Assembly (NCBI GenBank): GCA_020428565.1
Contig: JAGQMT010000001.1
Coordinates: 1-30,904 of the forward strand
Length of the DNA stretch: 30,904 bases
Reading direction: 5' to 3'
From: Candidatus Saccharimonadota bacterium
GTDB lineage: Bacteria; Patescibacteriota; Saccharimonadia; Saccharimonadales; JACDBH01
In this document: positions 2,011 to 30,662 of the stretch, piece after piece
Position numbering within the stretch: position 1 is the stretch's first letter
Layout: the number at the start of each line of letters is the position of its first letter
Translations under genes and position numbers: made by a program
Notes under the pieces: model-generated
Databases searched by the model: none
What the model was told of the DNA's origin: nothing
What the model saw: the letters and a program-made list of their open reading frames with translations, nothing else

Positions 2011-2040
2011 TTGACAAATATGACATATTTAGTGTACTAT
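2011..2040 (+). promoter_or_regulatory. Sigma70-type promoter for cassette D
   Basis: TTGACA (2011-2016), 18-bp spacer, TACTAT (2035-2040). Confidence 0.6.
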
Positions 2041-2121
2041 ATTACATAGAGATAGGCAATCGCCTATTTCATCCCCGACCTTCTGAGCATCAGAAGGCTT
2101 CCCCAAGCAAGGGAGAATAAA

Positions 2122-2490
2122 ATGTCGCACCTTATAGAAAAGAAAAAGCTGAAACCACTCCACTGGCGGATTATGATCACGGTTATCACAGCCTGCATTG
2201 GAGTCCTGATGTTCGTCGCTTGCATGCATCGCGATGAGCAAGAGCTCTTCGACCGACAATACATCCTATACAGTGTCGTCATACTGGTAGCAGTTACCGC
2301 CGGAGCAATTACACTTATCGCACTCTATGACAAGCCGTGGTGGTGGCAATACTACATGCTCCTGCTATCTTTCGCATACGCTGCATGTATGGCCACCGCC
2401 CCTATGTGGTCACTCGTTGTCAGCTCGGGACATACTGTAGGCATGATGCTGACAGCAGACATAGTGATATGCCGAGGCTCCTTGGAGTAG
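2122..2490 (+). CDS. Small multi-pass membrane hypothetical protein in a structured RNA cassette (cassette D)
   Basis: 122 aa with 3-4 hydrophobic segments. SD AAGGGAG at 2109-2115. Confidence 0.65.
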   Translation: MSHLIEKKKLKPLHWRIMITVITACIGVLMFVACMHRDEQELFDRQYILYSVVILVAVTAGAITLIALYDKPWWWQYYMLLLSFAYAACMATAPMWSLVVSSGHTVGMMLTADIVICRGSLE

Positions 2491-2957
2491 CAACGATGAA
2501 GCGCTAGCAATGGTCGAGGGTACGTCATCACATCAATGATGTTTTGCTGACCCTCGGCTCATTGCCCTATCTTTCACTTCTTCTCTGATTCTTATTCTCT
2601 CTTGCTTTTTTAACTTATGCGCATAGTTTATTCTATGAATTCATAAAACACATCGCAGATTATTTTTATCACAAAACCAAACCTAGCATTTTGTCCATGA
2701 CATGATATATAAACTCAATACAAGAAACTCCATAGCCTTATATAAATACAAAATAGCCTCTCCGCAATCTAAAAAGAGTCATTTGATAACTTGGTAAAAG
2801 CTATTGAAACGTCATCTGATGGAATTTTATAACTCCGCTAGAACCTTTTTGAGGAGAATTACTAGACAGCACGAGACACAAGGGACTGTCAGACCCCAAC
2901 AGCATTCAAAGTAAGTGGTTCGAGCAGGAGTGGCAACGTCAGGCAAAAAAACACGGC

Positions 2958-3449
2958 GTGGAAAGTAAAGAAGAATTAATAGCCCTACAGTCTAGAGCCT
3001 ATCGGAACTTAACATCAGAAAAGATTGCAGATAATTTTGCAGCTAACGTTTTTAAGATAAATCCACAACTCAAACAAGCAATGATGAATAACAACCTTGG
3101 CAACACAACTTCATCTGCCTCGGCTGAACATTCGGAATCTAGTCTATTGGAAGTAGATGGCCTAACACCCGAACAAAAGCAAAGAAAACGCTGGCAAGAA
3201 AATACTGATATAGCTGTAAAGGCACTTGAACAGAGGGGCGTTACTCCTGAGCAAGCTAGACTAGAGGCTAATGAACTCATACAAAACTTAACGGAGCGTA
3301 TTCGACAAATTCATGAACAAGCTTCACAGGAAGGACGGTCATTAACAAATAGCGAAAAGGGCTTAGCGGCTGGTCTCAAACAAACAATCGACGTACAAAA
3401 TAGAATTTCGGCGGTATTCCAAGCACGCCATGGACATAAAGATACATGA
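2958..3449 (+). CDS. Hypothetical helical protein, possibly the 3' part of a disrupted gene
   Basis: 163-aa ORF from GTG. The frame stays open about 35 codons upstream to a TGA with no ATG. Two TPEQ repeats. Confidence 0.5.
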   Translation: MESKEELIALQSRAYRNLTSEKIADNFAANVFKINPQLKQAMMNNNLGNTTSSASAEHSESSLLEVDGLTPEQKQRKRWQENTDIAVKALEQRGVTPEQARLEANELIQNLTERIRQIHEQASQEGRSLTNSEKGLAAGLKQTIDVQNRISAVFQARHGHKDT

Positions 3450-3481
3450 TCTATAAATAAAAGTATCTAGAGGTCTTACTT

Positions 3482-3506
3482 GTATTTGAACCTCGGGTTC
3501 AAATAC
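3482..3506. terminator. Hairpin between convergent ORF and tRNA
   Basis: GTATTTGAACC-tcg-GGTTCAAATAC, perfect 11-bp stem. Confidence 0.55.
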
Positions 3507-3554
3507 TTCCACTTACCGTCATATACGAAATTTAGCACAAGGCTAGATTCTACG

Positions 3555-3646
3555 TGGCGGAGAGAGAGGGATTCGAACACCCTCGGAACCGTTGCCGGCT
3601 CACTTGTTTTCGAGACAAGCCAGTTCAACCACTCCTGCACCTCTCC
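3555..3646 (-). tRNA. tRNA-Ser(CGA), encoded CCA, 2-nt insertion in T arm
   Basis: GGAGAGG acceptor, anticodon arm CTTGT-CTCGAAA-ACAAG, long variable arm, T arm GAGGG-TGTTCGAAT-CCCTC, ends CCGCCA. 92 nt. Confidence 0.9.
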
Positions 3647-3715
3647 ACTAGCCTAATATTATAACAGAGACAAACTACTCTATATACATTTGCTATTAAC
3701 TGCTAAACTATAGTC

Positions 3716-4120
3716 ATGCAAGATTCGATTTTTACCAAGATTATCAAAGGCGAATTGCCCTGCCACAAAATCTACGAGGATAACAAAACTATCGCTTTTC
3801 TAACAATCCAACCATACATAGAGGGTCACACTTTAGTGGTGCCAAAACTCCAGATAGACGATTTTGAGCAACTACCAACCGAAGATTATCAAGCACTATT
3901 TACCACCGTCCAGAAGGTCGCAAAGCGCATCAAAGACGTATTCAATGTCCCAAAGACCGCCGTTACCGTCTTGGGGATGGAGATACCCCATGCCCATGTT
4001 CATATTATGCCAGTAGATAGCGAAGCATCCTATTTTGAAGCAATCGAAAATCGTGCTACTATCCCTAATGAACCTGACCATCAGCAACTAGCATTAATAG
4101 CAGAAAGATTGAGGTTTTAA
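3716..4120 (+). CDS. HIT family nucleotide-binding protein
   Basis: SIFTKIIKGELPCHKIYED N-terminus, GHTLVVPK, and histidine triad PHAHVHIMP. Confidence 0.95.
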   Translation: MQDSIFTKIIKGELPCHKIYEDNKTIAFLTIQPYIEGHTLVVPKLQIDDFEQLPTEDYQALFTTVQKVAKRIKDVFNVPKTAVTVLGMEIPHAHVHIMPVDSEASYFEAIENRATIPNEPDHQQLALIAERLRF

Positions 4121-4293
4121 TGAGTAATGTAATGGTAGCGTTTTTGTTCTCACTAGGAGCAAGCGCTTGGATTTATACCAAAATGATGAAGTCAAATGGC
4201 GGACAGACCAAAAGCGCCCTGACAGTCGCAGGTGTTGTAGCGTTTATTCTATTCCTCTTCCTCTTGACTGTGCTCGATAAACTCACGAACTAG
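4120..4293 (+). CDS. 57-aa two-TM membrane protein (below the ORF-track cutoff)
   Basis: MSNVMVAFLFSLGASAWIYTKMMKSNGGQTKSALTVAGVVAFILFLFLLTVLDKLTN. TAATG stop/start overlap with the HIT gene. Confidence 0.75.
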   Translation: MSNVMVAFLFSLGASAWIYTKMMKSNGGQTKSALTVAGVVAFILFLFLLTVLDKLTN

Positions 4294-4348
4294 CCTAATA
4301 GTACTTTTTATTAGCAAAAATTCCTGACAACTGGTAATATAGTACTAT

Positions 4349-5185
4349 ATGGATGAGCAGAGTTTGGGTAGGCATCTGCAGACTGCCCGTATGAAAGCGG
4401 GGCTAACGCAGCAGGAATTATGTCAAAAAGCGAGTATTTCTTACTCGACATTGGCCAAAATTGAACGTGGAGCCATCAAGTCTCCATCGGTTTTTACTAT
4501 CCAGCGCCTCGCAGAAGTATTAAACACTAGTCTAGACCAACTCATGGGTAGTTTTGGCCCAGCTCTACCTCAAAAAGGTAGAAGTAAAAGTGGAGTTACC
4601 TTTGTGTATTTTGATATCAATGGCTGTTTGGTTAGATTCTTTCATCATGCCTTTACCGAACTAGCCGAAGAAACAGGTATGCCGGCTGACCAGATAGAAT
4701 CAACATTTTGGCATTACAATGACGCCGTGTGTCGAGGCGAGATGCCTATGGATGAGTTCAACCGAATTATGGCCGAAAACTTCAAACACATGATTGACTG
4801 GAAGCATTACTACATGAGGGCTGTCGAACCTATCCAGCAAATGCACGATTTAGTCATCTGGGCGTCACACTATTATAAGGTGGGTCTTCTTAGTAATATT
4901 ATGCCCGGCTTTATACCTGATATGCTAGGTAATGGCTTGTTACCCAATATTGAGTATGATACCATCATTGATTCATCAGCGGTAAAAACTATCAAGCCAG
5001 AGGCACAAATATTCCAAATTGCCCAGGAACACTCTGGCGCTAACTCTGGCGAAATACTATTCATCGATGACTCGAGGGCTAACATTATGGCGGCCAGTCA
5101 GCTAGGCTGGAAAGTGTTGTGGTTTGACGACTTCCGCCCAGAAGAATCCGTAGCGCGCGTCAAGCAAGCCCTAGAGCTAGCCTAG
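4349..5185 (+). CDS. XRE-family HTH fused to HAD-superfamily hydrolase
   Basis: N-terminal ARMKAGLTQQELCQKASISYSTLAKIERG. HAD motif I FDINGCL, motif II LLSN, KPE and motif IV FIDDS. Confidence 0.9.
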   Translation: MDEQSLGRHLQTARMKAGLTQQELCQKASISYSTLAKIERGAIKSPSVFTIQRLAEVLNTSLDQLMGSFGPALPQKGRSKSGVTFVYFDINGCLVRFFHHAFTELAEETGMPADQIESTFWHYNDAVCRGEMPMDEFNRIMAENFKHMIDWKHYYMRAVEPIQQMHDLVIWASHYYKVGLLSNIMPGFIPDMLGNGLLPNIEYDTIIDSSAVKTIKPEAQIFQIAQEHSGANSGEILFIDDSRANIMAASQLGWKVLWFDDFRPEESVARVKQALELA

Positions 5186-5211
5186 ACTCGGTATTTTAAA
5201 CCAAAGAGAAA

Positions 5212-5268
5212 CCCCAATTATCATTATCCGCTATACGGAACTCATTAGAGTATGAGTGATAATTGGGG
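5212..5268. terminator. Y-shaped (three-way) hairpin at the convergent end of the HAD gene and cassette A
   Basis: 12-bp stem CCCCAATTATCA/TGATAATTGGGG with two inner arms (TCCG/CGGA and ACTCAT/ATGAGT alternatives). Followed by a U-rich tract on the - strand. Confidence 0.55.
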
Positions 5269-5506
5269 GGTAGAGTGCCTTGATTGTCTGTCTATATGAC
5301 AGTATAGGTACAAGGCAGACCAGTGACGGTATTAGTATCTATGAGACACTTTGTGTATAAGCACGTACCGAAGCGCACTTCCCTGCTCGATGGACAGTCC
5401 ACAGAGCTTTGTTTCACCTCCAGGGAGAGGTTAGTTGGTTATCAGTTCCTTACTGCTAGGCGCATAGTTTGCGTAGTAGCGAGTCTATGCGAGACTCTTG
5501 GAGGCT

Positions 5507-6019
5507 TTAGCGACAGGCGAGCTCTCGCTCAACCCAGAAGTCATAGACTTCTGGGTTGTCGAGGCTCACTGCCTCGCGAGAGCGCTCGCCCGCGAGCGCT
5601 CTCGCCCTTACAAAGGCCTTGTAATATAGCCCTTCGTAAGGGCGGCCTCGCCTGTCGCGCGTGACGATAAGCGTCACGCGCCATGTTCCGTCCGCCATCT
5701 TGGTGGCGGCGATGAGGGTTCCCGAGGTGGCCGATGCCACCTCGATGTACCTCACTGGTGATTTCTCACCAATGAGGTACCACCCCCCTCCGACGTCCGC
5801 CTCCTCCACGAAGTGGAGGGTTTTTTTGTCATGGCCAGGGGCCATGACAAAAAAACGGCTCCCGAAGGAGTGGGTCGCCATGGCGACCTCCACTCCTTCA
5901 GGAGTCAAGCCGCTTGGGCAATGGGAAAACCCATGCCCAAGGGCCTTGGCAACCAGGTCCCAATCGTTCGTATAGAACACTTCGTCGAACATCATCTCCC
6001 CTTTTCGGGTCGTGTGCAT
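5507..6019 (-). CDS. Hypothetical protein with hairpin-tiled coding sequence (cassette A)
   Basis: 170-aa ORF. AAAGGGGAG lies just before the ATGs at 5995/5992, the likely start. GC-rich (35/60 G+C in 5521-5580 and in 5581-5640). No family recognised. Confidence 0.6.
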   Translation of the reverse strand: MHTTRKGEMMFDEVFYTNDWDLVAKALGHGFSHCPSGLTPEGVEVAMATHSFGSRFFVMAPGHDKKTLHFVEEADVGGGWYLIGEKSPVRYIEVASATSGTLIAATKMADGTWRVTLIVTRDRRGRPYEGLYYKAFVRARALAGERSREAVSLDNPEVYDFWVERELACR

Positions 6020-6287
6020 TTAGCATTGTTGCTAGGCTGCACGCCTCAAAGTCTCTAGTTTTAGAGCCCTTGAGCCGAAACTCAACTACATTGGCCATAG
6101 ACCAGCAATCGAGTTCCGAGCCCAAAAGCTCTAGTTACACAAAGTCAGAAAATGTTTGTATATCATAGGAACTAGCTCGAATGAGAGGCTCTTGTATTTG
6201 TACAAAGAATAGACTCCTTCCTACCAACAAACACCTTTACCGAACTAAGATAACCCAGCTTTTAATGTACGGAATCTTTGATTACTC

Positions 6288-6333
6288 AAAAATTCCCGGA
6301 GAGGCTGATGACATATCAGCCCAACCGGCAATT
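6288..6333 (-). terminator. Probable terminator of the helicase gene
   Basis: Long hairpin AATT.CCGG...GGCTGAT/ATCAGCC...CCGG.AATT followed by a T run, directly after the stop at 6338. Confidence 0.55.
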
Positions 6334-6337
6334 TTCG

Positions 6338-9300
6338 CTAACGATTACCATGATTTTTGGTAAATCTACTCTCTAGTGCAGATAGTGCCAGATCCAGATC
6401 ATCTACCGCCATAGGTATTTCGCCAAGACCATCATCAGGCGTAGGCTTATCAACAAGCTTAAGGGCATAATTGGTGTTACCATATTTTTCATACGACAAC
6501 AATACAATCACCCTTTCGCTATCTAGACGAATCTCATCTAGCAAATAAGCCTCCCGGCCATCGGCCGTATATTCTTGTGGACCCGACTCTGCCGCTACAT
6601 AGCTGTGACTGCCCAATCTGTCACGATAACCAGAATTCATTATCTGATCATACGACATCAACAAGCCAGTCGTGCTACGCAACTTCAGGTAAGGTCTCTC
6701 AACACTATCTACAGCAGCTTCGATTAGCTCATTGTCTAAATTATAGACGTCCTCTAGTAACTCATCTTCTTGACGTTCTGTTTCTTCGTCTCCGATTTGC
6801 CACGCACCCTCAATAAATTGATGGCTCTGTTCAATGTGACGAATTGCATATACTTGCTCCGATGTCAGTTGATCTGGCCAAGAAGCCACCTCGAAACTAC
6901 CAACATTTGGATCCCGTACAGATGAAGCAAAAGTTAAAGCGATTTCATCAGGATAAATCACATCCCAGATTTTATCAGAACCATCTCTATCAGCTTGCCT
7001 TAATTCTCCTGCAGAATTAACTACCCAAAAATATTGGTTGCCTGAGCCAGTTCCAATCCTTGTCCTACCTCCAAAATTTGTTAAGTAATCACCAGATTCT
7101 ATTAATTGCTGTTCGTACTCCCTCTTTAAACGCTCAGCCTGTCGTTCATGCAGTTCGGCTTCTATTGTCTCTACACCACTGTATACGTCTTCGATACGAC
7201 TATAGCTACGCTGGGCACCATCAGGCATATCAACCAAAAGTCTCAAGGCTACATTCGTAGGCAAAACAGACACATCACCATTAACAACTTGTTCCCAAGA
7301 TAAGGATATCTGAGCCTCTAAAGTTGAATCATAGGACCGAACATAATTAATCGGTACTTGCTCATCCATAACCATCATGACATCTGGATACTCACGCATC
7401 AATGCTTCGGTCCTTGTAATGTCATCTTCGTTGAATATATCATCCCAATTTAATCTGGGTGCATTGGCAAGTAGTGTGTGTAAATTAGTAATGTTATTTT
7501 CAGTCAATTGAGAAATTATCACGCTGTCAAGTCGACTCTGCAGATCTGTAGCAAACTGTGGATCAAACGTACGTGCCCAAGCTTGCAACTGATTTATCTC
7601 TTGTCTCCAATGTAGGTATTGTTGACGCAAAGGATGATTAGCACTTAGCAAAATATTCGCGAAATGTTCTTGAAGTTTATCAAAATCTGGAACAAGCATC
7701 TCTTCTCCAACAACCAAATTACCAAACAGCAAACTATGCTTATCACCAGCATGACCGTGTTCACTAAATACGATATCACCCACATCAGACAGACTAATAA
7801 GTTGTGGGGCAATCTCTGGCAACCAAGCTGGATCAACTTTACTAGCGCCCTGTAATAAGTTGAGAGTCTTAGGCCCTCGCTTGGTATTAATTTGAAGATC
7901 AAACGGAGTCGCCACCAATATATCACTACTACAAACACTACTACTTGATAGTTCACGATTTGAATCTTCTAAGGCAGAGTCATAGCTACCAGCATAGTGA
8001 TGAACCCACACCTGATCAATTAGTCCAGCGGCTATACACTTCAGTACAGCCTCTCTGTCTTCTGGCGTTAGTTCTTGAGTGCCGTCAGCACGCAACCCCA
8101 ACCGACTACGTATTTCCCTAATGCTCTGTTTTGCCGATGATACGTTCTTGCCCAAAATGTCATATTCTGACCATTTTTTATCAACACTACTCAATGCACG
8201 CAGTACATCACGCTGAGCCAAAAAGTCTGAATCTACTTCCTTTGTAAGTCGTTGCCAAGCAACATTATATTTACCGTTTTTGACAATTCCACCAGCCTGC
8301 TGAATACCAATACACTCCACCAAAGCTGATTGTACGTGCTTTGGATATTTGTGAGACTCAACAACCATACGTGCTAGATGAGTTTCTAGAGGCAACCGAT
8401 CCATCTTACGGCCTATATCAGTCAGTTCCTGATTTTCGGTCAAGGCACCCAATGTCCTAAGACGTAATTTAGCCTGTGCAATATCACCCCTATCAGGCTG
8501 ATGAAAGAAATCCATTGATTCCATGTCAAAATTACTAGCCGCCAATCGCAACATAGTTCGATCCAGTCGAGTGCGTAATATCTCGGGTGTTGGATGTGCT
8601 TCGCGCTCCTCAAACGCCACCGCAGTGCCAATGTTTTTCAAACTTGCCAACACATACTCTCCAGGCTTGGTCCTTCCAGCCCTACCAGCTCGTTGCAAAC
8701 AATCCGCTTGACTGATAGGTGCCATAAATAACCCCTCAACACCTTTGCGCTCTTCGGTACGCCTCTCTAATCCACTGTCTACCACAGCATCTATATCCTC
8801 TATAGTAATGCTAGTCTGAGCTACATTAGTAGCTAGTACAATCTTACCGCCACCGTGCTTCATGAACGCCTTGCGCTGTTCCTCTGCCGACAACTGACCG
8901 TGCAAAGGTATAATTGGTACACTAACACCACGGCTCCGGAGATCTCTCTCGACATCATCAATTTCTTTTTTGCCCGGCAAGAAGACAAGCGTATTTTTGC
9001 CTTGCTGTGCCATAGCAACGGTCTCGTCAACCAAATCCCCACCCTCCCGTCTAGCAACATCAAAGGTTCTACCCGGTACTTCTATAACAGGGGTTTGATT
9101 ACCAAAATACTGACTCAGAGCCTCGCTCTCTAGCGTTGCACTCATGGTCACTATTTTAATCTGCTCTTTTTTGGCCCATGCTAGTAGCACTTCAATATTC
9201 GTATTCCATTCATGTACTTCGTCTACTACTAGAACTTTCTCTCGCTCGACCCGATCTTCCCGACCTGCCAAAGACCGCACGACCTGTAATCCATCAGTAC

Positions 9301-9649
9301 AAAAAGTGATATCCGCATCCGCTGGACCAGATTTTTCTTTGGCCGTTCTATAGGCAACCGATATTGAATCGTCCGCTTCTTCTGCAACACGTTCGGCCAC
9401 CGTTCGAGCAGCCATAACTCGTGGCTGAGTCACTATCACTTCATAGCCAGCCTCAGCTAACATCTGTGGCACCTGCGTACTTTTGCCAGCGCCTGTTTCA
9501 GCAGTAATAACTGTTGCCTGATTAGATTCTACCGCATCAATAATTCGTTCTCGATAGGCCATAATTGGCAATTCTAGACCATCTAATATAACGTCCAGAT
9601 TATCTATCGGCTTATTATAATTATCCTGTTGCGTATTCCCTGTTGTCAT
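6338..9649 (-). CDS. HrpA/HrpB-like DExH-box (DEVH) ATP-dependent RNA helicase with a long unrecognised C-terminal region
   Basis: Motifs AETGAGKSTQVPQ, TQPR, FCTDG, DEVH, SAT, LVFLPG, PLHG, ATNVAQTSITI, QRAGRAGR, then an HA2-like LT.IGRKMDRLPL segment. 1103 aa. Confidence 0.9.
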   Translation of the reverse strand: MTTGNTQQDNYNKPIDNLDVILDGLELPIMAYRERIIDAVESNQATVITAETGAGKSTQVPQMLAEAGYEVIVTQPRVMAARTVAERVAEEADDSISVAYRTAKEKSGPADADITFCTDGLQVVRSLAGREDRVEREKVLVVDEVHEWNTNIEVLLAWAKKEQIKIVTMSATLESEALSQYFGNQTPVIEVPGRTFDVARREGGDLVDETVAMAQQGKNTLVFLPGKKEIDDVERDLRSRGVSVPIIPLHGQLSAEEQRKAFMKHGGGKIVLATNVAQTSITIEDIDAVVDSGLERRTEERKGVEGLFMAPISQADCLQRAGRAGRTKPGEYVLASLKNIGTAVAFEEREAHPTPEILRTRLDRTMLRLAASNFDMESMDFFHQPDRGDIAQAKLRLRTLGALTENQELTDIGRKMDRLPLETHLARMVVESHKYPKHVQSALVECIGIQQAGGIVKNGKYNVAWQRLTKEVDSDFLAQRDVLRALSSVDKKWSEYDILGKNVSSAKQSIREIRSRLGLRADGTQELTPEDREAVLKCIAAGLIDQVWVHHYAGSYDSALEDSNRELSSSSVCSSDILVATPFDLQINTKRGPKTLNLLQGASKVDPAWLPEIAPQLISLSDVGDIVFSEHGHAGDKHSLLFGNLVVGEEMLVPDFDKLQEHFANILLSANHPLRQQYLHWRQEINQLQAWARTFDPQFATDLQSRLDSVIISQLTENNITNLHTLLANAPRLNWDDIFNEDDITRTEALMREYPDVMMVMDEQVPINYVRSYDSTLEAQISLSWEQVVNGDVSVLPTNVALRLLVDMPDGAQRSYSRIEDVYSGVETIEAELHERQAERLKREYEQQLIESGDYLTNFGGRTRIGTGSGNQYFWVVNSAGELRQADRDGSDKIWDVIYPDEIALTFASSVRDPNVGSFEVASWPDQLTSEQVYAIRHIEQSHQFIEGAWQIGDEETERQEDELLEDVYNLDNELIEAAVDSVERPYLKLRSTTGLLMSYDQIMNSGYRDRLGSHSYVAAESGPQEYTADGREAYLLDEIRLDSERVIVLLSYEKYGNTNYALKLVDKPTPDDGLGEIPMAVDDLDLALSALESRFTKNHGNR

Positions 9650-9680
9650 AAATTTCTACTTATAATACCTGTTATTGATT

Positions 9681-9731
9681 ACTGTTTCGTCGTTTTCGAC
9701 TCATCAGAGGTGATACACATCACCTGACAGT
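9681..9731 (-). ncRNA. Type III hammerhead ribozyme
   Basis: Minus strand reads ACUGU-C / AGGUGAU-gugu-AUCACCU / CUGAUGA / GUCG-aaaa-CGAC / GAA-ACAGU: all conserved core bases, a G10.1-C11.1 pair, stems I-III and a GUC cleavage triplet. Predicted cut between 9726 and 9725. Confidence 0.93.
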
Positions 9732-10010
9732 TTGGGGTGTTGAATTTTGAGCAAAGCCCAAACACACCCCGTAGAGCACGGACATATATTAAAGAGGGGT
9801 CCGATTACCTCTAGTTCCTAACAAATTATTCAGTCCCTTATCCTTGGCTGATAGAATTATCAGTTCTTTCCTGAACCTAAAATTCATTTCACCAAGGCCG
9901 TAGACCTTACACCATAGTGTTAGCTATGGGCTTCCTCCTGCCTGTTAGCCAGACATGTCATATCACTATGACCTTTACCTCCGAGGGAGAGATAAGTTCA
10001 ACCGAGCTCA

Positions 10011-10355
10011 CTAGTTGCGTGCCAAAGCACAGCACCCAATGATTCGCCCGTCGGCATCCCTCACGGGTCCGCTCGTTGTGAGCAGATCGTGGGTGGGACG
10101 CCCCTGGGCGCGAGCCGCCGACACCGTGATGAAACTCACGATATAGGCAATTCCCTCGGTTGGCACGGGCAAGTCTTCGACTTCGCCAAACACCGTCTTG
10201 ACGACGGGTACGGCAAAACCATCGACCATCACCGCTCCGACCTGATGGTCAGATTGACGTGCCCTTGCCACTCCACCACTCGGAGCGATCGTCGCCACGA
10301 CATCATCGTCAGCAACAATCATCACCGCATGGGGAGTGAGGTTCACCAATTCCAT
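10011..10355 (-). CDS. Small NLTPH-motif protein (cassette B)
   Basis: SD GGAGG 5 nt upstream of ATG 10355. Sequence MELVNLTPH...PSG.VAR...V..LP.P....YIVS...VRDADGRIIGC..L matches a small conserved family often seen in phages and accessory regions. 38/60 G+C in 10021-10080. Confidence 0.8.
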   Translation of the reverse strand: MELVNLTPHAVMIVADDDVVATIAPSGGVARARQSDHQVGAVMVDGFAVPVVKTVFGEVEDLPVPTEGIAYIVSFITVSAARAQGRPTHDLLTTSGPVRDADGRIIGCCALARN

Positions 10356-10902
10356 TTTCACCTCCTTTTTAGTTGGCGAGCGTCTGTGGTTCCGGGACTT
10401 CCGGCAGACAGGAAAAGGTTGGAGTAAGTTACTCCACTAGGTGAATCAAGGGCGCATTGAACAAGACTACTAAGGCAGTCTACATATCATGGACACTAAT
10501 ATCAGCTAGTGGAATAACCCACTCTTTTACAGATATAAATTTAATGTACAGACCATCACATCCTAGCGATAGCCTTAGGTCCCGGTCAGTCGGTTCAGGA
10601 CTTAAGGCTGGTCAATTCGGTCAGCAAAGCCTCTCTATAAGCCTTACTAATTAACCACGCCTGTCTTTCTAAAATCATCGATACTCTGCCTATCCATCAC
10701 CAATAATCTACAATTATCAAGCTGGGAGGAGCAAGCTTTTAGCTTATGGCTCAACTGCCTAGATGTACGAGTGCTCTAGTTCTCGTATCAACAGCTCTAT
10801 CTAGAATCTATGTCTAGATCAATCTATTTAGATTCTTGGTAAGTAGGTCAAGTTGTCAATGTAATCGTTCTCAAAATGCCTCTCATTCATCGAACTGTAT
10901 AC

Positions 10903-10931
10903 ATCATACCGTAAATGTTTAAAAATGTCAA
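10903..10931 (-). promoter_or_regulatory. Sigma70-type promoter, divergent from the TrmB-like gene
   Basis: TTGACA (10931-10926), 17 bp, TATGAT (10908-10903). Confidence 0.6.
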
Positions 10932-10994
10932 TAATGTTATACGATATTCTCACTCAACAGGGGTAATTACATACTACTTTTTGTCAAAAGCTCG

Positions 10995-11023
10995 TTGACA
11001 AAATAATATTTTTTTGCTAATAT
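10995..11023 (+). promoter_or_regulatory. Promoter of a leaderless TrmB-like gene
   Basis: TTGACA, 17 bp, TGc-TAATAT, 7 nt, then ATG 11031. Confidence 0.75.
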
Positions 11024-11030
11024 AGTCAAT

Positions 11031-11768
11031 ATGACCCCCGAATTACTAGAAAACATCGGTCTCAACCATTCTCAAGCAAAGGCATATTTGGTATTAATCG
11101 AATCTGGTGCACTCACCCCTACCGAACTAGCCAACAAGATATTACAAAAACGCACTACTACCTATATGATAATGAATCAACTAGAAACACTAGGCTTGGT
11201 AGAAAAAACAACTAAGGGCACCAAAACCGCCTATGAAGCCACCAATCCCATCGCCCTAGAAAAACTATCTGAGTCACGACGCAAACAACTGCATCAAGCC
11301 GAAACCAGGGTTAAGCAAGCCATGCCCGCCCTACTCAGTTATTACTACTCCATTACAGAAAAACCAGGTATCAGGCTAGTTCAAGGCGTAGAAGGACTAA
11401 AGGACATTTATGCCGATACTTTGCGCGCTAAACAAGATATCTACTTCTTACGAACACCAGCGGATGTAGCAAAAATAGATCAAGAATATTTTGATAAATA
11501 CCGTCAAAAACGTGCTACGCTAGGCATAAAGACCTATGCCTTTACACCAGACACGGCACACAGCAGAGCTAGTTCCAATGACGACGAAAAGTTTCACATA
11601 CAGCGACAATGGATTAGCTCAGATATATATAGCGCGCCTGTAGAAATCGATGTCTACGGAGACAAGACCGCTCTACTTAGCTTTGGTGAAGATATAATTG
11701 GCGTTATCATACAAAGCCCAACTATCGCCGAGGCGATGAAACAACTCATCAGTAACCTCCCTAAGTAG
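11031..11768 (+). CDS. TrmB-family HTH transcriptional regulator
   Basis: LENIGLNHSQAKAYLVLIESGALTPTELANKILQKRTTTYMIMNQLETLGLV winged HTH, plus a C-terminal EIDVYGDKTALLSF effector/PLD-like domain. Confidence 0.85.
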   Translation: MTPELLENIGLNHSQAKAYLVLIESGALTPTELANKILQKRTTTYMIMNQLETLGLVEKTTKGTKTAYEATNPIALEKLSESRRKQLHQAETRVKQAMPALLSYYYSITEKPGIRLVQGVEGLKDIYADTLRAKQDIYFLRTPADVAKIDQEYFDKYRQKRATLGIKTYAFTPDTAHSRASSNDDEKFHIQRQWISSDIYSAPVEIDVYGDKTALLSFGEDIIGVIIQSPTIAEAMKQLISNLPK

Positions 11769-11780
11769 CTATCCCTGAGA

Positions 11781-12830: not shown

Positions 12831-12878
12831 TTTTGCATTCTTGAGTTATGGTTTTTTGTTTTAATTGCTTACATCTTT

Positions 12879-12907
12879 AATATAGCACAAAATTTGTTTA
12901 AAGTCAA
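12879..12907 (-). promoter_or_regulatory. Sigma70-type promoter
   Basis: TTGACT, 17 bp, TGc-TATATT. Confidence 0.65.
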
Positions 12908-12967
12908 TTCCGTGTGTTCCGTTGCACGTTTGCATCGACTAGCGATTGTACCCCAATGATTAGCGTC

Positions 12968-15541: not shown

Positions 15542-15615
15542 ATGTCCATAATTATACCACCTCTGTTATAACTACCAAAGTAAAATCTAGCACACATCAG
15601 TTGCAAATTAATTGA

Positions 15616-15861
15616 TTAACTATCACTTCTCTTTTGACGCAGTACTTCTACCCATATTTCTAGTCTAACACCCGGACAATTGCCGTTCATACAAGCATCA
15701 AATAACGACCCCAACATTAAACGAGTTGATACAGTACTGAGATTATCAGGGTCACTGACCTGCTCGACAAAACAATCCTCTATCACTAAATTCAGTGGCA
15801 TGACGCAACTTTCAGCGTCACTTGTACAGTTTCGATTAACTTCAAAGATATCGTATTCCAT
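15616..15861 (-). CDS. Small Cys-containing hypothetical protein
   Basis: 81-aa ORF with 5 Cys filling the tsaD-valS gap on the same strand. Confidence 0.4.
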   Translation of the reverse strand: MEYDIFEVNRNCTSDAESCVMPLNLVIEDCFVEQVSDPDNLSTVSTRLMLGSLFDACMNGNCPGVRLEIWVEVLRQKRSDS

Positions 15862-15924
15862 ACCAATACCCTAAATCAATAGCTTAAAATCCGCAATCTT
15901 TCATATGAAAGTAATAGCTAATAA

Positions 15925-17001: not shown

Positions 17002-17071
17002 CGCTACAATTATACCAGACACTTTAGATGACAGATAGGCAAGGGCAGTGGTCTAGCGTATAGTATGTAGT

Positions 17072-18382
17072 ATGAATCCACGAAAAATCGTCAAAAAACT
17101 CTTTCCCAAGCAAGTGTTCCAAAAGATAGAGCCCTATGGTCACATGGCAGAGGCTATGATCGCCCAAGCAAAGTATCATTTTCCAGCCAAAAACATCAAC
17201 GTAGTAGGTATAACTGGTACAGATGGTAAAACCACCACCTGCAGTCTTGTTGCATCGGTTCTGAGGGCTGGCGGTTATAGAGTTGGTGTGCTTACGACCG
17301 CCTACATTGATTATGGCGATGGGCGAGGAGAGCAAACCAACATCACCAACCTAACCACTGGCAACGCTTTTGCTCTCAACAGAATCATCTCTCAGATGAG
17401 AGCCAACCAAGTCGACTGGATAGTACTAGAAACCTCCAGCCATGCTCTCAATCAACACCGTATATGGGGTATACCTATCACCATTGCTATCATGACTAAT
17501 ATGAGCCAAGAACACTTAGATTATCACGGCACATTTACCAACTACCAACGTGCCAAAGAGATACTATTCAAGATGTGCAATCGCAACAAACACGGCTTAC
17601 AAACAGGTGTTGTCAATGCCGATGATGCCACTGCTGACAGCTTTGCCAAAAGAATCAAAAACTCAATCTCATATGGCATCAACAAGGGTGAGCTACGTGC
17701 CCAGGATCTCATAACCGACCTAAACGGCAACAGATTTAACGTGAAGACCGATAAACTCGACCATGCTTTTAGCACTCATCTTTTGGGTAGATTCAACACC
17801 TACAACGCACTATCCGCCATCGCCACAGGCAAAGTCTTAGGCCTTAGTCCAGAAGTTATACAGAGAGGACTTGATACCGTACAGAGCGTAGAAGGGCGCA
17901 TGATGCCACTAGATGTTGGTCAACCCTACAAAGTACTCATAGACTACGCCGTAACACCGGGGGCTTTAGAAAGCGTTCTTGGCACAATACGCGACATAGC
18001 AGGCAAGGGAAAGGTTCATATAGTCTTTGGGGCTACAGGTGATAGAGACAAGACCAAACGCCCCGCCATGGGAGAGGTTACCTCAAGACTAGCCGATAAA
18101 GTCTACCTTACAGATGACGAAACATACACAGAAGATGCCAGTAGTATCCAAAGCCAAGTATTATCTGGTGCATCAACCAAGAATAAACACAAAATTATCC
18201 AATTTGATGACCGCCAAGATGCCATTGCCAGTGCTATATCCAGCGCCAGAGCAGGGGATATAATCGTAATTTCTGGCATAGGTCATCAAACAACTCGAAA
18301 TATGGGTGGCAAGAAGATCAAATGGAGCGACTTAGAAATCACCAAACAACTCCTTCAAAAATCCCTTGAATCCAAAGCATAA
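17072..18382 (+). CDS. murE: UDP-N-acetylmuramoyl-tripeptide synthetase (MurE-type ligase)
   Basis: ITGTDGKTTT, LETSSHAL, TNMSQEHLDYHG, EGRM, DYA.TP.AL, FGATGDRD.TKRP.MG. Confidence 0.9.
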   Translation: MNPRKIVKKLFPKQVFQKIEPYGHMAEAMIAQAKYHFPAKNINVVGITGTDGKTTTCSLVASVLRAGGYRVGVLTTAYIDYGDGRGEQTNITNLTTGNAFALNRIISQMRANQVDWIVLETSSHALNQHRIWGIPITIAIMTNMSQEHLDYHGTFTNYQRAKEILFKMCNRNKHGLQTGVVNADDATADSFAKRIKNSISYGINKGELRAQDLITDLNGNRFNVKTDKLDHAFSTHLLGRFNTYNALSAIATGKVLGLSPEVIQRGLDTVQSVEGRMMPLDVGQPYKVLIDYAVTPGALESVLGTIRDIAGKGKVHIVFGATGDRDKTKRPAMGEVTSRLADKVYLTDDETYTEDASSIQSQVLSGASTKNKHKIIQFDDRQDAIASAISSARAGDIIVISGIGHQTTRNMGGKKIKWSDLEITKQLLQKSLESKA

Positions 18383-18439
18383 GGTATAAAGTATAATCAA
18401 TAACCTAATTATAAAATATAAATAAGTTAAATAGTTGCA

Positions 18440-18494
18440 AAAAGAAAATATGCGTTGTTTTATCTACTAGGAAATCTAGGATTAAACAACGCAT
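18440..18494 (-). terminator. Probable intrinsic terminator of cassette C
   Basis: 11-bp stem ATGCGTTGTTT (18450-18460)/AAACAACGCAT (18484-18494), followed on the - strand by ATTTTCTTTT. Confidence 0.6.
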
Positions 18495-18640
18495 CTTACG
18501 TCAATATTGGCTGAGACAGATCCAATCAAACATAGATATCTTCGCTGAAGGGGCACCTTTGTGTGCAATACATTGCGGTCGACGCCGTTGGCGACACACA
18601 AAAAAATACACAAAGGTAGCCCTCCCCCCAGCGATCTTGA

Positions 18641-19018
18641 CTACTTACGTCGTGATTGAGCGACGTTCTTGTAACGAGGCTTTTGCTTCGCTACGCCCAC
18701 ACCAGCAGGGTGCGCCTGACGCGAACGCTGACTCTCGCGATACAGAGTGGTCGCGAAATCGCATGCAGCCGCAATAACGTTGTAGCATTTCTCACTATCA
18801 CTCCCGACAGGAAAGCTGAAGTACACCTCCCCACAAACCATGACCTCCACGGTCACGCCAGTGCGTCGCTGACAACGAACAACTGCATCAGGAATGAATT
18901 CCTTCACCCCCAGGACACCTTTGTCCTCGATGGATACGTGCACACGATTGTGAAGGACATAGCCCACAATCGGGATCAGTCGCCCTTGAGCAACGATGTT
19001 TTTGTTAATATCTTGCAT
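18641..19018 (-). CDS. Hypothetical protein with hairpin-rich coding sequence (cassette C)
   Basis: SD AAGGAG (19028-19023) before ATG 19018 gives 125 aa, MQDINKNIVAQGRLIPIVGY... The longer track ORF runs through the promoter region. Confidence 0.6.
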   Translation of the reverse strand: MQDINKNIVAQGRLIPIVGYVLHNRVHVSIEDKGVLGVKEFIPDAVVRCQRRTGVTVEVMVCGEVYFSFPVGSDSEKCYNVIAAACDFATTLYRESQRSRQAHPAGVGVAKQKPRYKNVAQSRRK

Positions 19019-19132
19019 CACTCTCCTTAAGAGTGTTTGTCTGCCAATATGACCATAACATTCAATCATATTTATACTAAAAAAGCAACCTTTATCATCA
19101 AAATATAAATTATATGGTATAATACACATACA

Positions 19133-30457: not shown

Positions 30458-30536
30458 TACTTTATAGTTTACGAAAAATTTACCCCTATTCATAGGTGTA
30501 AAATATACAAAACTTACGATATAATAATATTTGTCT

Positions 30537-30626
30537 GGAGAGGTGCAGGAGTGGTTGAACTGGCAGTCCTGGAAAGACTGTGAGCCGGCAACGGTTCCGA
30601 GGGTTCGAATCCCTCTCTCTCCGCCA
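30537..30626 (+). tRNA. tRNA-Ser(GGA), encoded CCA
   Basis: Anticodon arm CAGTC-CTGGAAA-GACTG, long variable arm, GAGGG-TTCGAAT-CCCTC. 90 nt. Confidence 0.96.
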
Positions 30627-30638
30627 TAACAAAAATAA

Positions 30639-30662
30639 TCTGTCATCAAGACAGACTTTTTT
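30639..30662 (+). terminator. Terminator after the tRNA
   Basis: TCTGTC-atcaa-GACAGA followed by a T run. Confidence 0.6.

What the first reader, a model, noticed from the sequence alone, without database searches (positions are those of the whole stretch)
2048..19053. Candidate new system: dispersed self-closing, hyper-structured mini-gene RNA cassettes
Seen: four unrelated small ORFs (2122+, 5507-, 10011-, 18641-) share an architecture of clear SD, hairpin-dense CDS, 5' leader complementary to 3' trailer, and a defined 3' end (terminator-like hairpin or hammerhead). A and B have raised GC (35-38/60 versus 20/60 in the helicase at 7441-7500 and 29/60 in valS at 13021-13080). Flanking housekeeping genes show no such tiling, and many look leaderless. 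Inference, three alternatives: (a) chromosomal DNA copies of viroid-/Obelisk-like or satellite RNA replicons; (b) nuclease-resistant packaged mRNAs made by an episymbiont for long-term storage or delivery to a higher-GC host that translates SD-led mRNA; (c) elements with a single-stranded DNA phase. No reverse transcriptase, RdRP or TSD is visible here.
Basis: partly seen in the sequence, partly recalled or inferred. Interest (0 to 1): 0.9.

Follow-up and report, generated by a model that had tools for sequence, protein, structure and literature searches.

The report
Four unrelated accessory genes, two hyper-structured
The four "cassettes" are not one system but four unrelated strain-variable genes in a wastewater Saccharibacteria-like genome: one is tiled by perfect hairpins for no known reason, and one is a Crn4b ring-nuclease gene with a conserved folded coding region and a hammerhead ribozyme at its 3' end.

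Summary
Partly confirmed. I label the ORFs A (2122+), B (5507-), C (10011-) and D (18641-).

All four lie in gaps between conserved housekeeping genes that differ among close relatives. All have Shine-Dalgarno sites and raised GC. They do not share one architecture.

- **B** is real and extreme. Fourteen perfect hairpins cover 58% of its CDS (synonymous-permutation z -16), and it is the top structural outlier of the 665-kb assembly. It still encodes a confidently folded member of a protein family. The cause is unexplained.
- **C** is a Crn4b-type cyclic-oligoadenylate ring nuclease. Its CDS carries an RNA structure conserved across Saccharibacterial homologues (alignment z -6.8 to -8.5; controls -1.8 to +0.4). 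A type III hammerhead lies 280 nt downstream.
- **The hammerhead** has the same fold, with covarying stems, in 18 of 60 related genomes. It usually follows unrelated small GC-rich ORFs. This arrangement is known from prophages.
- **A and D** are orphans without excess CDS structure.
- **5'-3' closure** is significant for A (at other coordinates than given), marginal for B and D, and absent for C.

In one metatranscriptome, RNA contigs cover only C and D. I found no support for viroid- or Obelisk-like replicons.

The scan's other notes on this window cover the same features; none came from other DNA.

The parts
2011..2040 (+). Promoter-like site upstream of ORF A (TTGACA-18-TACTAT)
   Evidence: Consensus scan, 10 of 12 matches. 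A pattern match only.
2105..2120 (+). 5' arm of a 16-nt inverted repeat covering the SD of ORF A. Its partner is 2592-2607.
   Evidence: 15 of 16 positions complementary. 0 of 300 shuffles reach 16 nt, and the cofold gain has z -4.25.
2122..2490 (+). ORF A: a 122-aa small membrane protein and an orphan
   Evidence: Only weak transmembrane-type Pfam hits. No homologue in 20 relatives. CDS structure z +0.27. No RNA contig in X14.
2592..2607 (+). 3' arm of the ORF A inverted repeat (anti-SD), followed by a T run
   Evidence: and the sequence.
5205..5270 (-). Terminator-like long-loop hairpin followed by a T-rich tail, at the end of the B unit. It abuts the stop of the convergent HTH-HAD gene.
   Evidence: Read from the sequence. 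Present in the MFE fold.
5413..5429 (-). 17-nt motif in the B 3' UTR, shared only with the C 3' UTR
   Evidence: The pattern occurs exactly twice in the genome. One one-mismatch hit in 200 genomes of the order.
5507..5992 (-). ORF B (161 aa from the SD-proximal ATG; the longest ORF reaches 6019). A real protein gene whose CDS is tiled by 14 perfect hairpins.
   Evidence: Hairpins and structure. Family of 56 clusters. AF2 pLDDT 88.7. Syntenic 28%-identical homologue without hairpins in G012. A 98%-identical allele in an independent assembly keeps all hairpins.
5993..6280 (-). Structured 5' leader of B, structured on the sense strand only
   Evidence: Window z -6.3 to -6.9 on the - strand, against about -3 or not significant on +. 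Sense -130.8 against antisense -87.7 kcal/mol over 5993-6337, a stretch that also takes in the helicase terminator.
6289..6335 (-). Terminator-like hairpin directly after the helicase stop codon. It is not part of the B leader.
   Evidence: Inverted repeat of 21 nt, followed by a T run in the sequence.
6338..9649 (-). HrpA/HrpB-like DEAH-box helicase (1103 aa) lying between B and C, with no SD
   Evidence: Not next to the B or C homologues in the other loci examined.
9679..9733 (-). Type III hammerhead ribozyme. The predicted cut lies between 9726 and 9725.
   Evidence: Rfam 44.1 bits, E 1e-6. 68 bits with the lineage model R1. The family alignment is 95% paired, with 13 of 16 pairs compensatory.
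9768..9782 (-). Small GC hairpin 35 nt upstream of the hammerhead. An RNA contig ends at 9767.
   Evidence: Contig ends are not transcript ends, so this is suggestive only.
9974..9991 (-). 18-nt motif in the C 3' UTR, shared with the B 3' UTR
10011..10355 (-). ORF C: a Crn4b-type ring nuclease (114 aa) with a conserved RNA structure in its CDS
   Evidence: PDB 9r7b Crn4b at E 2e-23. PADLOC Unk_01. Invariant NLTPH motif and RD/GR residues. CDS z -5.9, and -5 to -8 in homologues. Alignment-level z -6.8 and -8.5. 13 helices, with 17 of 65 pairs compensatory. RNA contigs in X14.
10903..10931 (-). Best promoter-like site of the region (TTGACA-17-TATGAT), about 550 nt upstream of C. It is the likely start of the C transcript.
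   Evidence: The X14 RNA contig at 10631-10866 lies just downstream.
11031..11768 (+). TrmB-family regulator, divergent from C. The pairing recurs in close relatives.
   Evidence: loci L030 and L048; 58% identity to the L030 copy. A more distant TrmB-family gene also stands near the C homologue in L031.
18447..18497 (-). Terminator-like hairpin with a T-rich tail downstream of D
   Evidence: Inverted repeat of 18 nt at 89%, and the sequence.
18549..18623 (-). Long hairpin in the D 3' UTR
   Evidence: 16-nt arms, 88% complementary. Window z -3.9.
18641..19018 (-). ORF D (125 aa from the SD-proximal ATG): an orphan that is transcribed and looks protein-coding
   Evidence: No homologue among 5.8 billion proteins or in 20 relatives. 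CDS z -1.7. X14 RNA contig 18507-18947 with an in-frame 3-nt insertion. A strain variant has 12 nt changes giving 4 aa changes in this frame, against 4-9 in the other five frames; four of those have 4-9 stops and the only other nearly open one gives 8.
19040..19061 (-). 5' arm of the marginal closing duplex of D. Its partner is 18493-18514.
   Evidence: 22 nt at 73% complementarity. Cofold gain z -2.65, reached by 1 of 100 shuffles.

Best explanation
The window comes from a small-genome bacterium of wastewater. I infer Saccharibacteria (TM7) from the names on homologues and from genome size. The four ORFs are unrelated accessory genes that sit in the fast-turnover gaps between conserved housekeeping genes. 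Each is an autonomous unit with its own promoter-like site, SD and 3'-end element, like a phage moron or a genomic islet. They are not copies of one element.

C is a Crn4b-type ring nuclease that degrades cyclic oligoadenylate signals, paired with a TrmB-family regulator. I infer that it is transcribed from about 10900. Its CDS folds into a multi-helix structure conserved among Saccharibacterial homologues. Its transcript is cut or ended by a type III hammerhead just before the next gene. Hammerheads with this fold mark the ends of unrelated small GC-rich accessory genes in about a third of related genomes. I read them as transcript-end or processing signals. That role is inferred, not shown.

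B is a genuine protein gene whose coding sequence, in this species only, has been rewritten into back-to-back perfect hairpins while keeping the residues conserved in its family. My best guess has two inferred steps. Template-switch mutations create perfect inverted repeats, and selection retains them because an extremely folded, long-lived or RNase-resistant mRNA is useful. The same pressure, in milder form, would explain the conserved fold of the crn4b CDS.

A and D are orphan genes. A has a 3'-UTR anti-SD pairing that probably gates translation.
For: - Variable slots. In G001 the HTH-HAD and valS stop codons overlap, with none of B, the helicase, C, TrmB or ORF349 between them. G012 has only a B homologue there. 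G002 has a different hammerhead cassette between tsaD and valS.
- The proteins are unrelated. C matches Crn4b (paper PMC12830947). B belongs to its own family. A and D are orphans.
- B: z -16 against synonymous permutations, unique genome-wide, hairpins not repeated elsewhere, and no tiling in the G012 homologue.
- C: the excess structure is conserved, with z -5 to -8 in four homologues and alignment z -6.8 and -8.5 against controls of -1.8 to +0.4.
- Hammerhead family: 19 of 61 genomes against 0 of 14 controls, 95% paired, 13 of 16 pairs compensatory. It lies 45-280 nt after unrelated small ORFs, 16 of 18 with GC above their locus, and often abuts the stop of a convergent gene.
- Those upstream ORFs average z -2.0, against -0.17 for controls (Mann-Whitney p 0.001).
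- Precedent: hammerheads flank single genes in prophages, including the anti-restriction gene ardA (PMC3088659).
- RNA: the only metatranscriptome contigs on 17.5 kb lie inside the C unit and on D.
- Template switching can create and maintain perfect hairpins (PMC8794818, PMC8604942).
Against: - No direct evidence exists for ribozyme cleavage or for transcript ends. The Logan contigs are unstranded, and their ends are not RNA ends.
- B was not seen in the one clear metatranscriptome.
- The perfect Watson-Crick, strand-symmetric palindromes of B fit a DNA-level cause as well as an RNA-level one.
- The selection pressure is conjecture. No type III CRISPR, SAVED or RtcB gene was found, but the genome is only 68% complete.
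- B and C share a private 17-18-nt 3'-UTR motif, and three of the four units show some 5'-3' complementarity. The 'unrelated units' view does not explain either.
- In one C homologue locus the hammerhead lies upstream of C, not downstream.
Confidence: 0.62

Rival explanations
1. B and C, and perhaps other hammerhead-linked small genes, are a functional class of RNase-proof mRNAs. GC enrichment and dense folding let them persist when single-strand RNases are active, for example collateral RNases switched on by cyclic oligoadenylates, or host RNases. They might also allow storage or transfer to the host.
For: - Excess structure is specific to these genes and is conserved for crn4b.
- The product of C switches off cOA-activated effectors (PMC12830947), so its mRNA would have to survive them.
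- GC is raised in 16 of 18 hammerhead-linked ORFs, whose mean z is -2.0.
- RNA of C and D was detected where the neighbouring genes were not.
Against: - No cOA-producing system or RNase effector was found in this assembly, which is 68% complete.
- The Crn4 homologue inside a type III CRISPR locus is not structured, z -1.4.
- A and D lack the structure.
- Nothing bears on delivery to a host.
Confidence: 0.18
2. The hairpin tiling of B is a DNA-level feature. It could be a neutral run of template-switch (quasi-palindrome) mutations in a tolerant gene. It could also be palindromes that act in DNA, as protein-binding sites, cruciforms or single-stranded DNA hairpins. The latter is the first reader's alternative (c).
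For: - The stems are perfect Watson-Crick pairs. They are nearly as stable on the antisense strand: -292 against -308 kcal/mol, with 4 against 9 G-U pairs.
- z-scores are similar on both strands.
- The two alleles differ by clustered multi-nucleotide changes, the signature described for template switching (PMC8604942).
Against: - No other gene in the 665-kb assembly shows this, so a genome-wide mutational bias alone does not explain it.
- The reading frame and the family-conserved residues are kept.
- The adjacent 5' leader is structured on the sense strand only, which points to RNA.
Confidence: 0.15
3. The cassettes are chromosomal DNA copies of viroid-, Obelisk- or satellite-like RNA replicons, or of ribozyme-bounded circular RNAs.
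For: - A genuine type III hammerhead is present.
- In a related genome, two hammerheads in the same orientation bracket a 1,068-nt single-ORF unit. That could yield a ligatable RNA.
- The hammerhead lies on different sides of crn4b in two lineages.
Against: - This genome has a single hammerhead and none beside A, B or D.
- No RtcB was found.
- No end-to-end closure for C, and its flanks are not conserved.
- The proteins are cellular families in syntenic or variable chromosomal slots.
- No replicase or reverse transcriptase was seen among the window's ORFs searched.
- Perreault et al. did not detect circular products for bacterial tandem hammerheads.
Confidence: 0.03

Closest known systems
Hammerhead ribozymes flanking single genes or short gene blocks in prophages (Perreault et al. 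2011, PMC3088659)
   Same: A type III hammerhead with the canonical core lies in an intergenic position after a small accessory gene. The gene identities vary. An anti-defence gene is among them: ardA there, crn4b here. In relatives, pairs of ribozymes bracket one gene or a few genes.
   Different: Here the host is a Saccharibacteria-like chromosome among housekeeping genes, with no integrase or phage genes in view. This genome has only one ribozyme. The ribozymes often abut the stop codon of a convergent gene. My searches of the held library for hammerhead together with Patescibacteria or Saccharibacteria found nothing relevant.
Crn4b CRISPR ring nuclease (PDB 9r7b; Nat Commun 2025, PMC12830947)
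   Same: Profile match at E 2e-23 over the full length. The conserved His (in NLTPH) and Arg are kept. It has the short Crn4b length. It is stand-alone or MGE-type, as described for phage and plasmid copies.
   Different: No type III CRISPR or cOA effector was found nearby or in the 68%-complete assembly. It is paired with a TrmB-family regulator. The CDS carries a conserved RNA structure and raised GC, which I did not find described.
Phage morons / genomic islets
   Same: These are autonomous small genes with their own promoter-like and terminator-like signals. Their base composition differs from the surroundings, and they sit between conserved genes at sites that are empty in relatives.
   Different: They are not inside a recognisable prophage. 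No target-site duplications or recombinase were seen. Some end in a ribozyme rather than a terminator.
3'-UTR to SD pairing as in the S. aureus icaR mRNA (recalled from memory, not checked here)
   Same: In ORF A, a pyrimidine-rich 3'-UTR segment is complementary to the SD region over 16 nt.
   Different: There is no experimental evidence, no homologues to test covariation, and the organism is unrelated.
Template-switch-generated perfect hairpins (PMC8794818, PMC8604942)
   Same: The inverted repeats are perfect with short loops, and the alleles differ by clustered multi-nucleotide changes.
   Different: Known cases are single hairpins in rRNA, miRNA precursors or isolated coding sites. I know of no precedent for fourteen hairpins tiling one 486-nt ORF.
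In-frame palindromic repeat insertions (Rickettsia palindromic elements, PARCELs; recalled from memory)
   Same: Palindromic DNA lies inside an intact reading frame.
   Different: Those are multi-copy repeat families inserted as blocks. The hairpins of B are all unique, are not found elsewhere in the genome, and align without large insertions to a hairpin-free homologue.

Membership tests
Hammerhead ribozyme, type III | Conserved catalytic core (CUGAUGA, GAAA) and a GUH cleavage site | tested here: met
   CUGAUGA, GAAA and GUC are all present in the Rfam alignment. The core is invariant or nearly so in 19 lineage copies.
Hammerhead ribozyme, type III | Three helices around the core, with stem III open and stems I and II closed, supported by covariation | tested here: met
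   95% of cells paired against 35-42% for slid controls, and 13 of 16 pairs show compensatory change. The copies were found with a structure model, which favours pairing.
Hammerhead ribozyme, type III | Score at or above Rfam's gathering threshold | tested here: not met
   44.1 bits against 48.5. E is 1e-6 for the window, and none of 61 related genomes exceeds the cut-off. This is a compact lineage variant.
Hammerhead ribozyme, type III | Self-cleavage activity | not testable with these tools
   Needs in-vitro transcription or end-mapped RNA-seq.
Crn4 ring nuclease (Crn4b subfamily) | Full-length sequence homology to solved Crn4 proteins | tested here: met
   Profile of 35 homologues: 9r7b Crn4b E 2e-23, 9sma Crn4a E 4e-16, 9qs9 E 2e-14. 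PADLOC Unk_01 E 4e-20.
Crn4 ring nuclease (Crn4b subfamily) | Conserved catalytic His and the conserved Arg of the RD motif | tested here: met
   H9 in NLTPH and R99 are invariant in 35 sequences. The paper names H17 and R103 of Crn4b.
Crn4 ring nuclease (Crn4b subfamily) | Short form lacking the roughly 10-residue hairpin extension of Crn4a | tested here: met
   The protein is 114 aa, and the best match is Crn4b, aligned with few gaps.
Crn4 ring nuclease (Crn4b subfamily) | Association with type III CRISPR or cOA-activated effectors | tested here: not met
   No RAMP or SAVED match in the 68%-complete assembly. Distant homologues do sit in a type III locus (L041) or next to a Csx3-like gene (L051). 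Stand-alone MGE copies are described in the paper.
Crn4 ring nuclease (Crn4b subfamily) | Cleavage of cA3 and cA4 | not testable with these tools
   Needs a biochemical assay.
Viroid- or Obelisk-like RNA replicon (DNA copy) | Genome-length rod-like or end-to-end self-complementarity | tested here: not met
   Leader-trailer gain z +0.8 and +0.7 for C, -2.3 for B, and A not at the stated ends. The structure in B is local hairpins.
Viroid- or Obelisk-like RNA replicon (DNA copy) | Ribozymes able to process unit-length RNA (two sites or both polarities), and a ligase | tested here: not met
   One hammerhead in the genome. No other Rfam ribozyme at E up to 5. No RtcB (incomplete genome).
Viroid- or Obelisk-like RNA replicon (DNA copy) | Element-specific protein (Oblin) or no cellular homologues | tested here: not met
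   B and C belong to cellular families. Oblin itself was not searched for.
Phage moron / autonomous accessory gene unit | Lies between conserved genes at a site that is empty in relatives | tested here: met
   Synteny with G001, G002 and G012.
Phage moron / autonomous accessory gene unit | Own promoter and terminator, and deviant composition | tested here: inconclusive
   Promoter-like and terminator-like matches and raised GC are present, but pattern matches are not evidence of function.
Phage moron / autonomous accessory gene unit | Located in a prophage | tested here: not met
   The neighbours are housekeeping genes. Only C gave PHROG hits.

The most novel reading that the evidence does not exclude
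Saccharibacteria carry a class of accessory, largely anti-defence or host-interaction genes whose mRNAs are built to be RNase-proof. They are GC-enriched, have coding regions under selection for dense folding, and are released as defined units by hammerhead ribozymes. Folding is conserved in crn4b and taken to an extreme in ORF B, where perfect hairpins tile the CDS. These messages would then survive, or be translated during, RNA-degrading immune responses of the bacterium or its host.
Probability: 0.15. Interest if true: 0.85.

Novelty: new variant of a known kind. Interest (0 to 1): 0.58.

Why it matters
- **Bacterial hammerheads.** Their function has been open since 2011. Here a compact type III variant recurs at the ends of variable small genes in a lineage of tiny episymbiont genomes, one of them a ring nuclease. 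That gives a concrete test bed for the idea that these ribozymes act as transcript-end or insulator signals.
- **The crn4b coding region.** A multi-helix RNA fold is conserved in the CDS across homologues with 52-84% protein identity. This suggests selection on the message itself in an anti-defence gene.
- **ORF B.** It is the most structured 0.5 kb of the genome yet still encodes a well-folded protein. I know of no precedent. It offers a natural experiment on how far a coding sequence can be overwritten by secondary structure, and on whether template switching or selection for RNA stability does the overwriting.

Tried and rejected
- **Repeat-family origin of the B hairpins** (RPE, PARCEL or MITE-like). 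Rejected: short-word blastn finds the arms only against themselves.
- **B as non-coding RNA.** Rejected. It has a syntenic homologue and a family of 56 clusters. Conserved residues are kept and the AF2 model has pLDDT 88.7. By my own codon-by-codon reading of the two alleles aligned, they differ by about 6 synonymous and 4 amino-acid changes.
- **Function of B.** No Pfam hit. No significant PDB or Atlas fold match, TM at most 0.44. A profile match to TALE repeats rests on many sub-threshold repeats against one short segment, so I treat it as a lead only.
- **The shared B/C 3'-UTR motif as a lineage-wide signal.** Not recurrent in 200 genomes of the order.
- **Circular permutation of a C+hammerhead element.** Only the CDS and the ribozyme align between the window and L031; the flanks do not.
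- **Helicase as a conserved partner of B or C.** It is not adjacent in the other loci examined.
- **The search for related loci for the C family.** It gave nothing usable.
- **Homologues of A and D.** None found.
- **Other GC islands and structured regions of the genome.** These are rRNA, a GC-rich ABC-ATPase fragment, or unexplained intergenic stretches. None is a further cassette.
- **Expression of B.** Only ambiguous 'metagenomic RNA-Seq' runs hold parts of it.

Full report
**Setting**

The window is contig C61 of a 665-kb, 149-contig assembly. The assembly has 42.8% GC and is 68% complete. The backbone genes are HIT, an HTH-HAD fusion, valS, tsaD, a Mur ligase, groES/groEL and PGI. Homologues of the small proteins carry names such as Candidatus Saccharibacteria and Nanogingivalaceae. 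Relatives have genomes of 0.6-1.3 Mb. The DNA occurs in at least 11 wastewater or activated-sludge metagenomes from separate studies. I therefore treat the organism as a Saccharibacteria-like episymbiont; this is inferred. The sequence is not an assembly artefact.

I label the ORFs A (2122+), B (5507-), C (10011-) and D (18641-).

**Shared features that hold**

- All four ORFs have strong SD sites 4-8 nt before an ATG. These starts shorten B to 5507-5992, C to 10011-10355 and D to 18641-19018.
- GC is 0.59 for B, 0.59 for C, 0.52 for D and 0.50 for A, against 0.428 for the genome.
- Many neighbouring genes have a TATAAT-like box 6-10 nt before the ATG and no SD. groES, groEL and a few others also use SD sites.
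- All four ORFs lie in gaps between conserved genes that differ among relatives:
  - In G001 (same genus) the stop codons of HTH-HAD and valS overlap. The 7.8 kb holding B, the helicase, C, TrmB and ORF349 is absent.
  - G012 (another genus) has only a B homologue at that site.
  - G002 (same genus) has a different hammerhead cassette between tsaD and valS, where this genome has an 81-codon ORF.
  - Each relative has its own orphan, GC-raised small ORF in the slot that D occupies here.

**Hairpin density**

| Test | A | B | C | D | Controls |
|---|---|---|---|---|---|
| Synonymous-codon permutation, z | +0.27 | -16.0 | -5.9 | -1.7 | -3.4 to +1.6 (11 genes) |

The permutation keeps protein sequence and codon usage fixed.

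- Sliding 120-nt windows against dinucleotide shuffles give z of -5 to -13 across the whole B CDS on both strands. A, C and D show only scattered peaks of -3 to -5.
- B holds 14 perfect hairpins with stems of 5-17 bp and loops of 3-6 nt. They cover 283 of 486 nt.
- B is the top region of the assembly in a perfect-hairpin scan, with coverage 0.40 against a mean of 0.011 and a next-best of 0.22. It is also top in a GC-corrected folding scan.
- The other outliers in that scan are the rRNA operon and a few unexplained intergenic stretches. None is a further cassette.

'Hairpin-dense CDS' is therefore true for B, true in a milder form for C, and not true for A or D.

**Self-closure**

I measured the cofold energy gain of leader with trailer against 100 shuffled trailers.

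|---|---|---|
| A | +0.2 | 53 of 100 |
| B | -2.3 | 2 of 100 |
| C | +0.8 | 74 of 100 |
| D | -2.65 | 1 of 100 |

- C stays at +0.7 when the leader is extended to the likely promoter.
A 16-nt inverted repeat at 2105-2120 / 2592-2607 is complementary at 15 of 16 positions and covers the SD. It gives z -4.25, and 0 of 300 shuffles reach that length.

Closure is therefore significant for A, marginal for B and D, and absent for C.

**ORF C is a ring-nuclease gene**

- A profile of 35 homologues matches solved Crn4b (9r7b, E 2e-23), Crn4a and Crn4 H15A.
- PADLOC calls it Unk_01, the name from which Crn4 was defined.
- The His of NLTPH and the Arg of the RD motif are invariant.
- The published enzyme degrades cA3 and cA4. 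Copies also occur on phages and plasmids, where they are read as anti-CRISPRs (PMC12830947).
- Distant homologues sit inside a type III CRISPR locus (L041) or next to a Csx3-like gene (L051).
- In close relatives, and here, the gene is paired with a divergent TrmB-family regulator.
- I found no RAMP or SAVED gene in this incomplete assembly.

**The C coding region carries a conserved RNA fold**

- Saccharibacterial homologues with 52-79% protein identity all show raised GC (0.54-0.65 against 0.40-0.51 for their loci). They also show strong excess structure, z -5.1 to -8.0. Homologues in GC-rich contexts show less: -3.2, and -1.4 for the copy in the CRISPR locus.
- On a codon alignment of eight sequences, the consensus energy is -52.2 kcal/mol against -24.6 +/- 4.0 for codon-column shuffles, z -6.8.
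- With four divergent sequences, z is -8.5. Eight slices of four housekeeping families give -1.8 to +0.4.
- The consensus has 13 helices of at least 4 bp, 81-93% paired. Seventeen of 65 pairs show compensatory change.
- The fold is much more stable on the sense strand: -169 against -128 kcal/mol.
- The flanks of C are not conserved in homologous loci.

**The hammerhead**

- The motif at 9679-9733(-) scores 44.1 bits with Rfam Hammerhead_3. That is below the gathering score of 48.5, with E 1e-6, and the core is complete.
- The same search hits 19 of 61 genomes (this one and 18 of 60 relatives) and 0 of 14 control genomes.
- Nineteen copies align with 95% pairing against 35-42% for slid controls. 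Thirteen of 16 pairs are compensatory, and the stem-I loop is conserved.
- In the 20 loci examined, the ribozyme typically lies 45-280 nt after a same-strand ORF of 96-165 aa.
  - These ORFs are mostly unrelated: small membrane proteins, an RpoA-CTD-like protein and others.
  - In 16 of 18 the GC is above that of the locus.
  - The ribozyme often abuts the stop codon of a convergent gene.
- Their CDS structure is mildly raised, mean z -2.0 against -0.17 for controls (p 0.001).
- In G032, pairs of ribozymes in one orientation bracket a 1,068-nt single-ORF unit and a 3.9-kb three-ORF unit.
- In three contigs carrying one 65%-identical crn4b allele, the ribozyme lies 330 nt upstream of the gene, at the end of the preceding unit.

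This matches what Perreault et al. described for prophages: hammerheads flank single genes or blocks of varying identity, including the anti-restriction gene ardA, and their function is unknown (PMC3088659). My searches of the held library for hammerhead together with Patescibacteria or Saccharibacteria found nothing relevant.

**RNA evidence**

One true metatranscriptome (X14) yields only four contigs on 17.5 kb. Three lie at 10631-10866, 10037-10242 and 9767-10006. The fourth lies at 18507-18947.

- The first three fall between the best promoter-like site of the region (10931-10903, TTGACA-17-TATGAT) and the ribozyme.
- The last of those three ends at the foot of a small hairpin at 9768-9782.
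- No housekeeping gene is covered, nor is A or B.
- The D contig carries an in-frame 3-nt insertion.
- In a DNA strain variant, 12 substitutions in D cause 4 amino-acid changes in D's frame. The only other nearly open frame gives 8, and the remaining frames carry 4-9 stops.

C and D are therefore transcribed, at levels or stabilities above their neighbours. D looks protein-coding. The contigs are unstranded and their ends are not transcript ends, so cleavage is not shown.

**ORF B**

B encodes a real protein:
- It has a syntenic 156-aa homologue in G012, 28% identical with pairwise E 6e-8.
- A profile finds 56 cluster representatives, some named Saccharibacteria.
- The family-conserved residues are kept.
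- AlphaFold2 with that alignment gives pLDDT 88.7 and pTM 0.83.
- No known fold or family matches.

The hairpins are specific to this species:
- The G012 homologue is equally GC-rich (0.59) but has no excess structure, z -1.1.
- A 98%-identical allele from another assembly keeps every hairpin. All its CDS differences fall in two clusters outside the hairpins. With only two clusters, that placement is not statistically strong.
- The stems are perfect Watson-Crick pairs and are nearly strand-symmetric: -308 kcal/mol sense against -292 antisense.
- The 5' leader is structured on the sense strand only.
- The hairpin arms occur nowhere else in the genome.

What is shown is a derived, gene-specific overwriting of a CDS by palindromes under a maintained reading frame. 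I did not establish the cause. Template switching is a documented source of perfect hairpins and of clustered coding changes (PMC8794818, PMC8604942), but it does not explain why only this gene is affected. I therefore favour that mutational source plus selection on the RNA.

**Loose ends**

- B and C share a 17-18-nt 3'-UTR motif found nowhere else in the genome and essentially nowhere in 200 genomes of the order.
- B and C flank an HrpA/HrpB-like DEAH helicase. It is not conserved next to either gene in the other loci examined.

**Verdict**

Three real things remain:
1. A hairpin-tiled protein gene, which is novel and unexplained.
2. A crn4b gene with a conserved structured message.
3. A lineage-wide use of compact hammerheads at the ends of variable accessory genes, which is a new setting for a known arrangement.

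One of the related genomes used in the hammerhead alignment and count (G017, locus L023) is flagged as unpublished.

Noticed in passing
window 3680-30700 (starts of HIT, HTH-HAD, helicase, TrmB, valS, the Mur ligase, ORF201, ORF87, ORF326): Many genes have a TATAAT-like box 6-10 nt upstream of the ATG and no SD. This suggests widespread leaderless mRNAs in this genome. SD-led genes are a minority: A-D, groES/EL, ORF299 and ORF412.
   Followed up: partly
window 5413-5429(-) and 9974-9991(-): A 17-18-nt motif (CTCTCCCT, an optional base, GGAGGTRAA) forms an anti-SD/SD-like hairpin. It occurs only in the 3' UTRs of B and C in the whole assembly. It gave one one-mismatch hit in 200 genomes of the order. 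Unexplained.
   Followed up: partly
L061 (G032:C15) 1423-2549; L062 (G032:C1) 2337-6254: Pairs of same-orientation hammerheads bracket a 1,068-nt unit with one 221-aa ORF and a 3.9-kb unit with three ORFs. Cleavage would release RNAs with 5'-OH and cyclic-phosphate ends.
   Followed up: partly
L041 3001-3363 (NCBI GCA_031551755.1): A 39%-identical Crn4 homologue lies inside a type III CRISPR locus with RAMP genes, Cas6 and an RT-Cas1 fusion. Its CDS lacks the excess structure, z -1.4.
   Followed up: partly
L051 529-2364 (Saccharibacteria MAG GCA_017514045.1): A Crn4b homologue is followed by a large protein with a weak Csx3 (ring-nuclease) domain hit. This hints at cOA signalling in Saccharibacteria.
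   Followed up: no
window 10011-11768; L030, L048: crn4b is repeatedly paired with a divergently transcribed TrmB-family regulator. The intergenic region is 0.5-0.7 kb and is transcribed in X14. In L030 an IS3-family transposase follows the gene and its C-terminus is altered.
   Followed up: partly
P0002 residues ~36-55 (window ~5860-5915): The segment GLTPEGVEVAMATHS of the B family resembles a single TALE repeat. The profile hit to TAL effectors comes from many sub-threshold repeat matches. It may be chance.
   Followed up: no
G000 contigs C35:1-540, C22:181-600, C113:241-600: These intergenic stretches are among the most structured in the genome after B and the rRNA. None has an Rfam match at E up to 0.01.
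   Followed up: partly
G000 contig C124:1-700: A 0.65-0.69 GC stretch at a contig end lies inside a 383-aa partial ORF that reads like an ABC-type ATPase (my reading of its translation, not a family search). It may be foreign DNA or contamination.
   Followed up: no
L027 14315-14770, L028 8788-9282, L029 18286-18774: Each of three relatives has its own orphan 151-164-aa ORF with GC 0.54-0.56 between the Mur ligase and groES. D occupies that slot here. None matches D or the others at blastp E 1e-5.
   Followed up: partly
window 3555-3646(-) and 30537-30626(+): Two tRNA-Ser genes (anticodons CGA and GGA) were found. The second lies inside the longest-ORF call 29552-30649(-), so that ORF's start is probably overcalled.
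   Followed up: no
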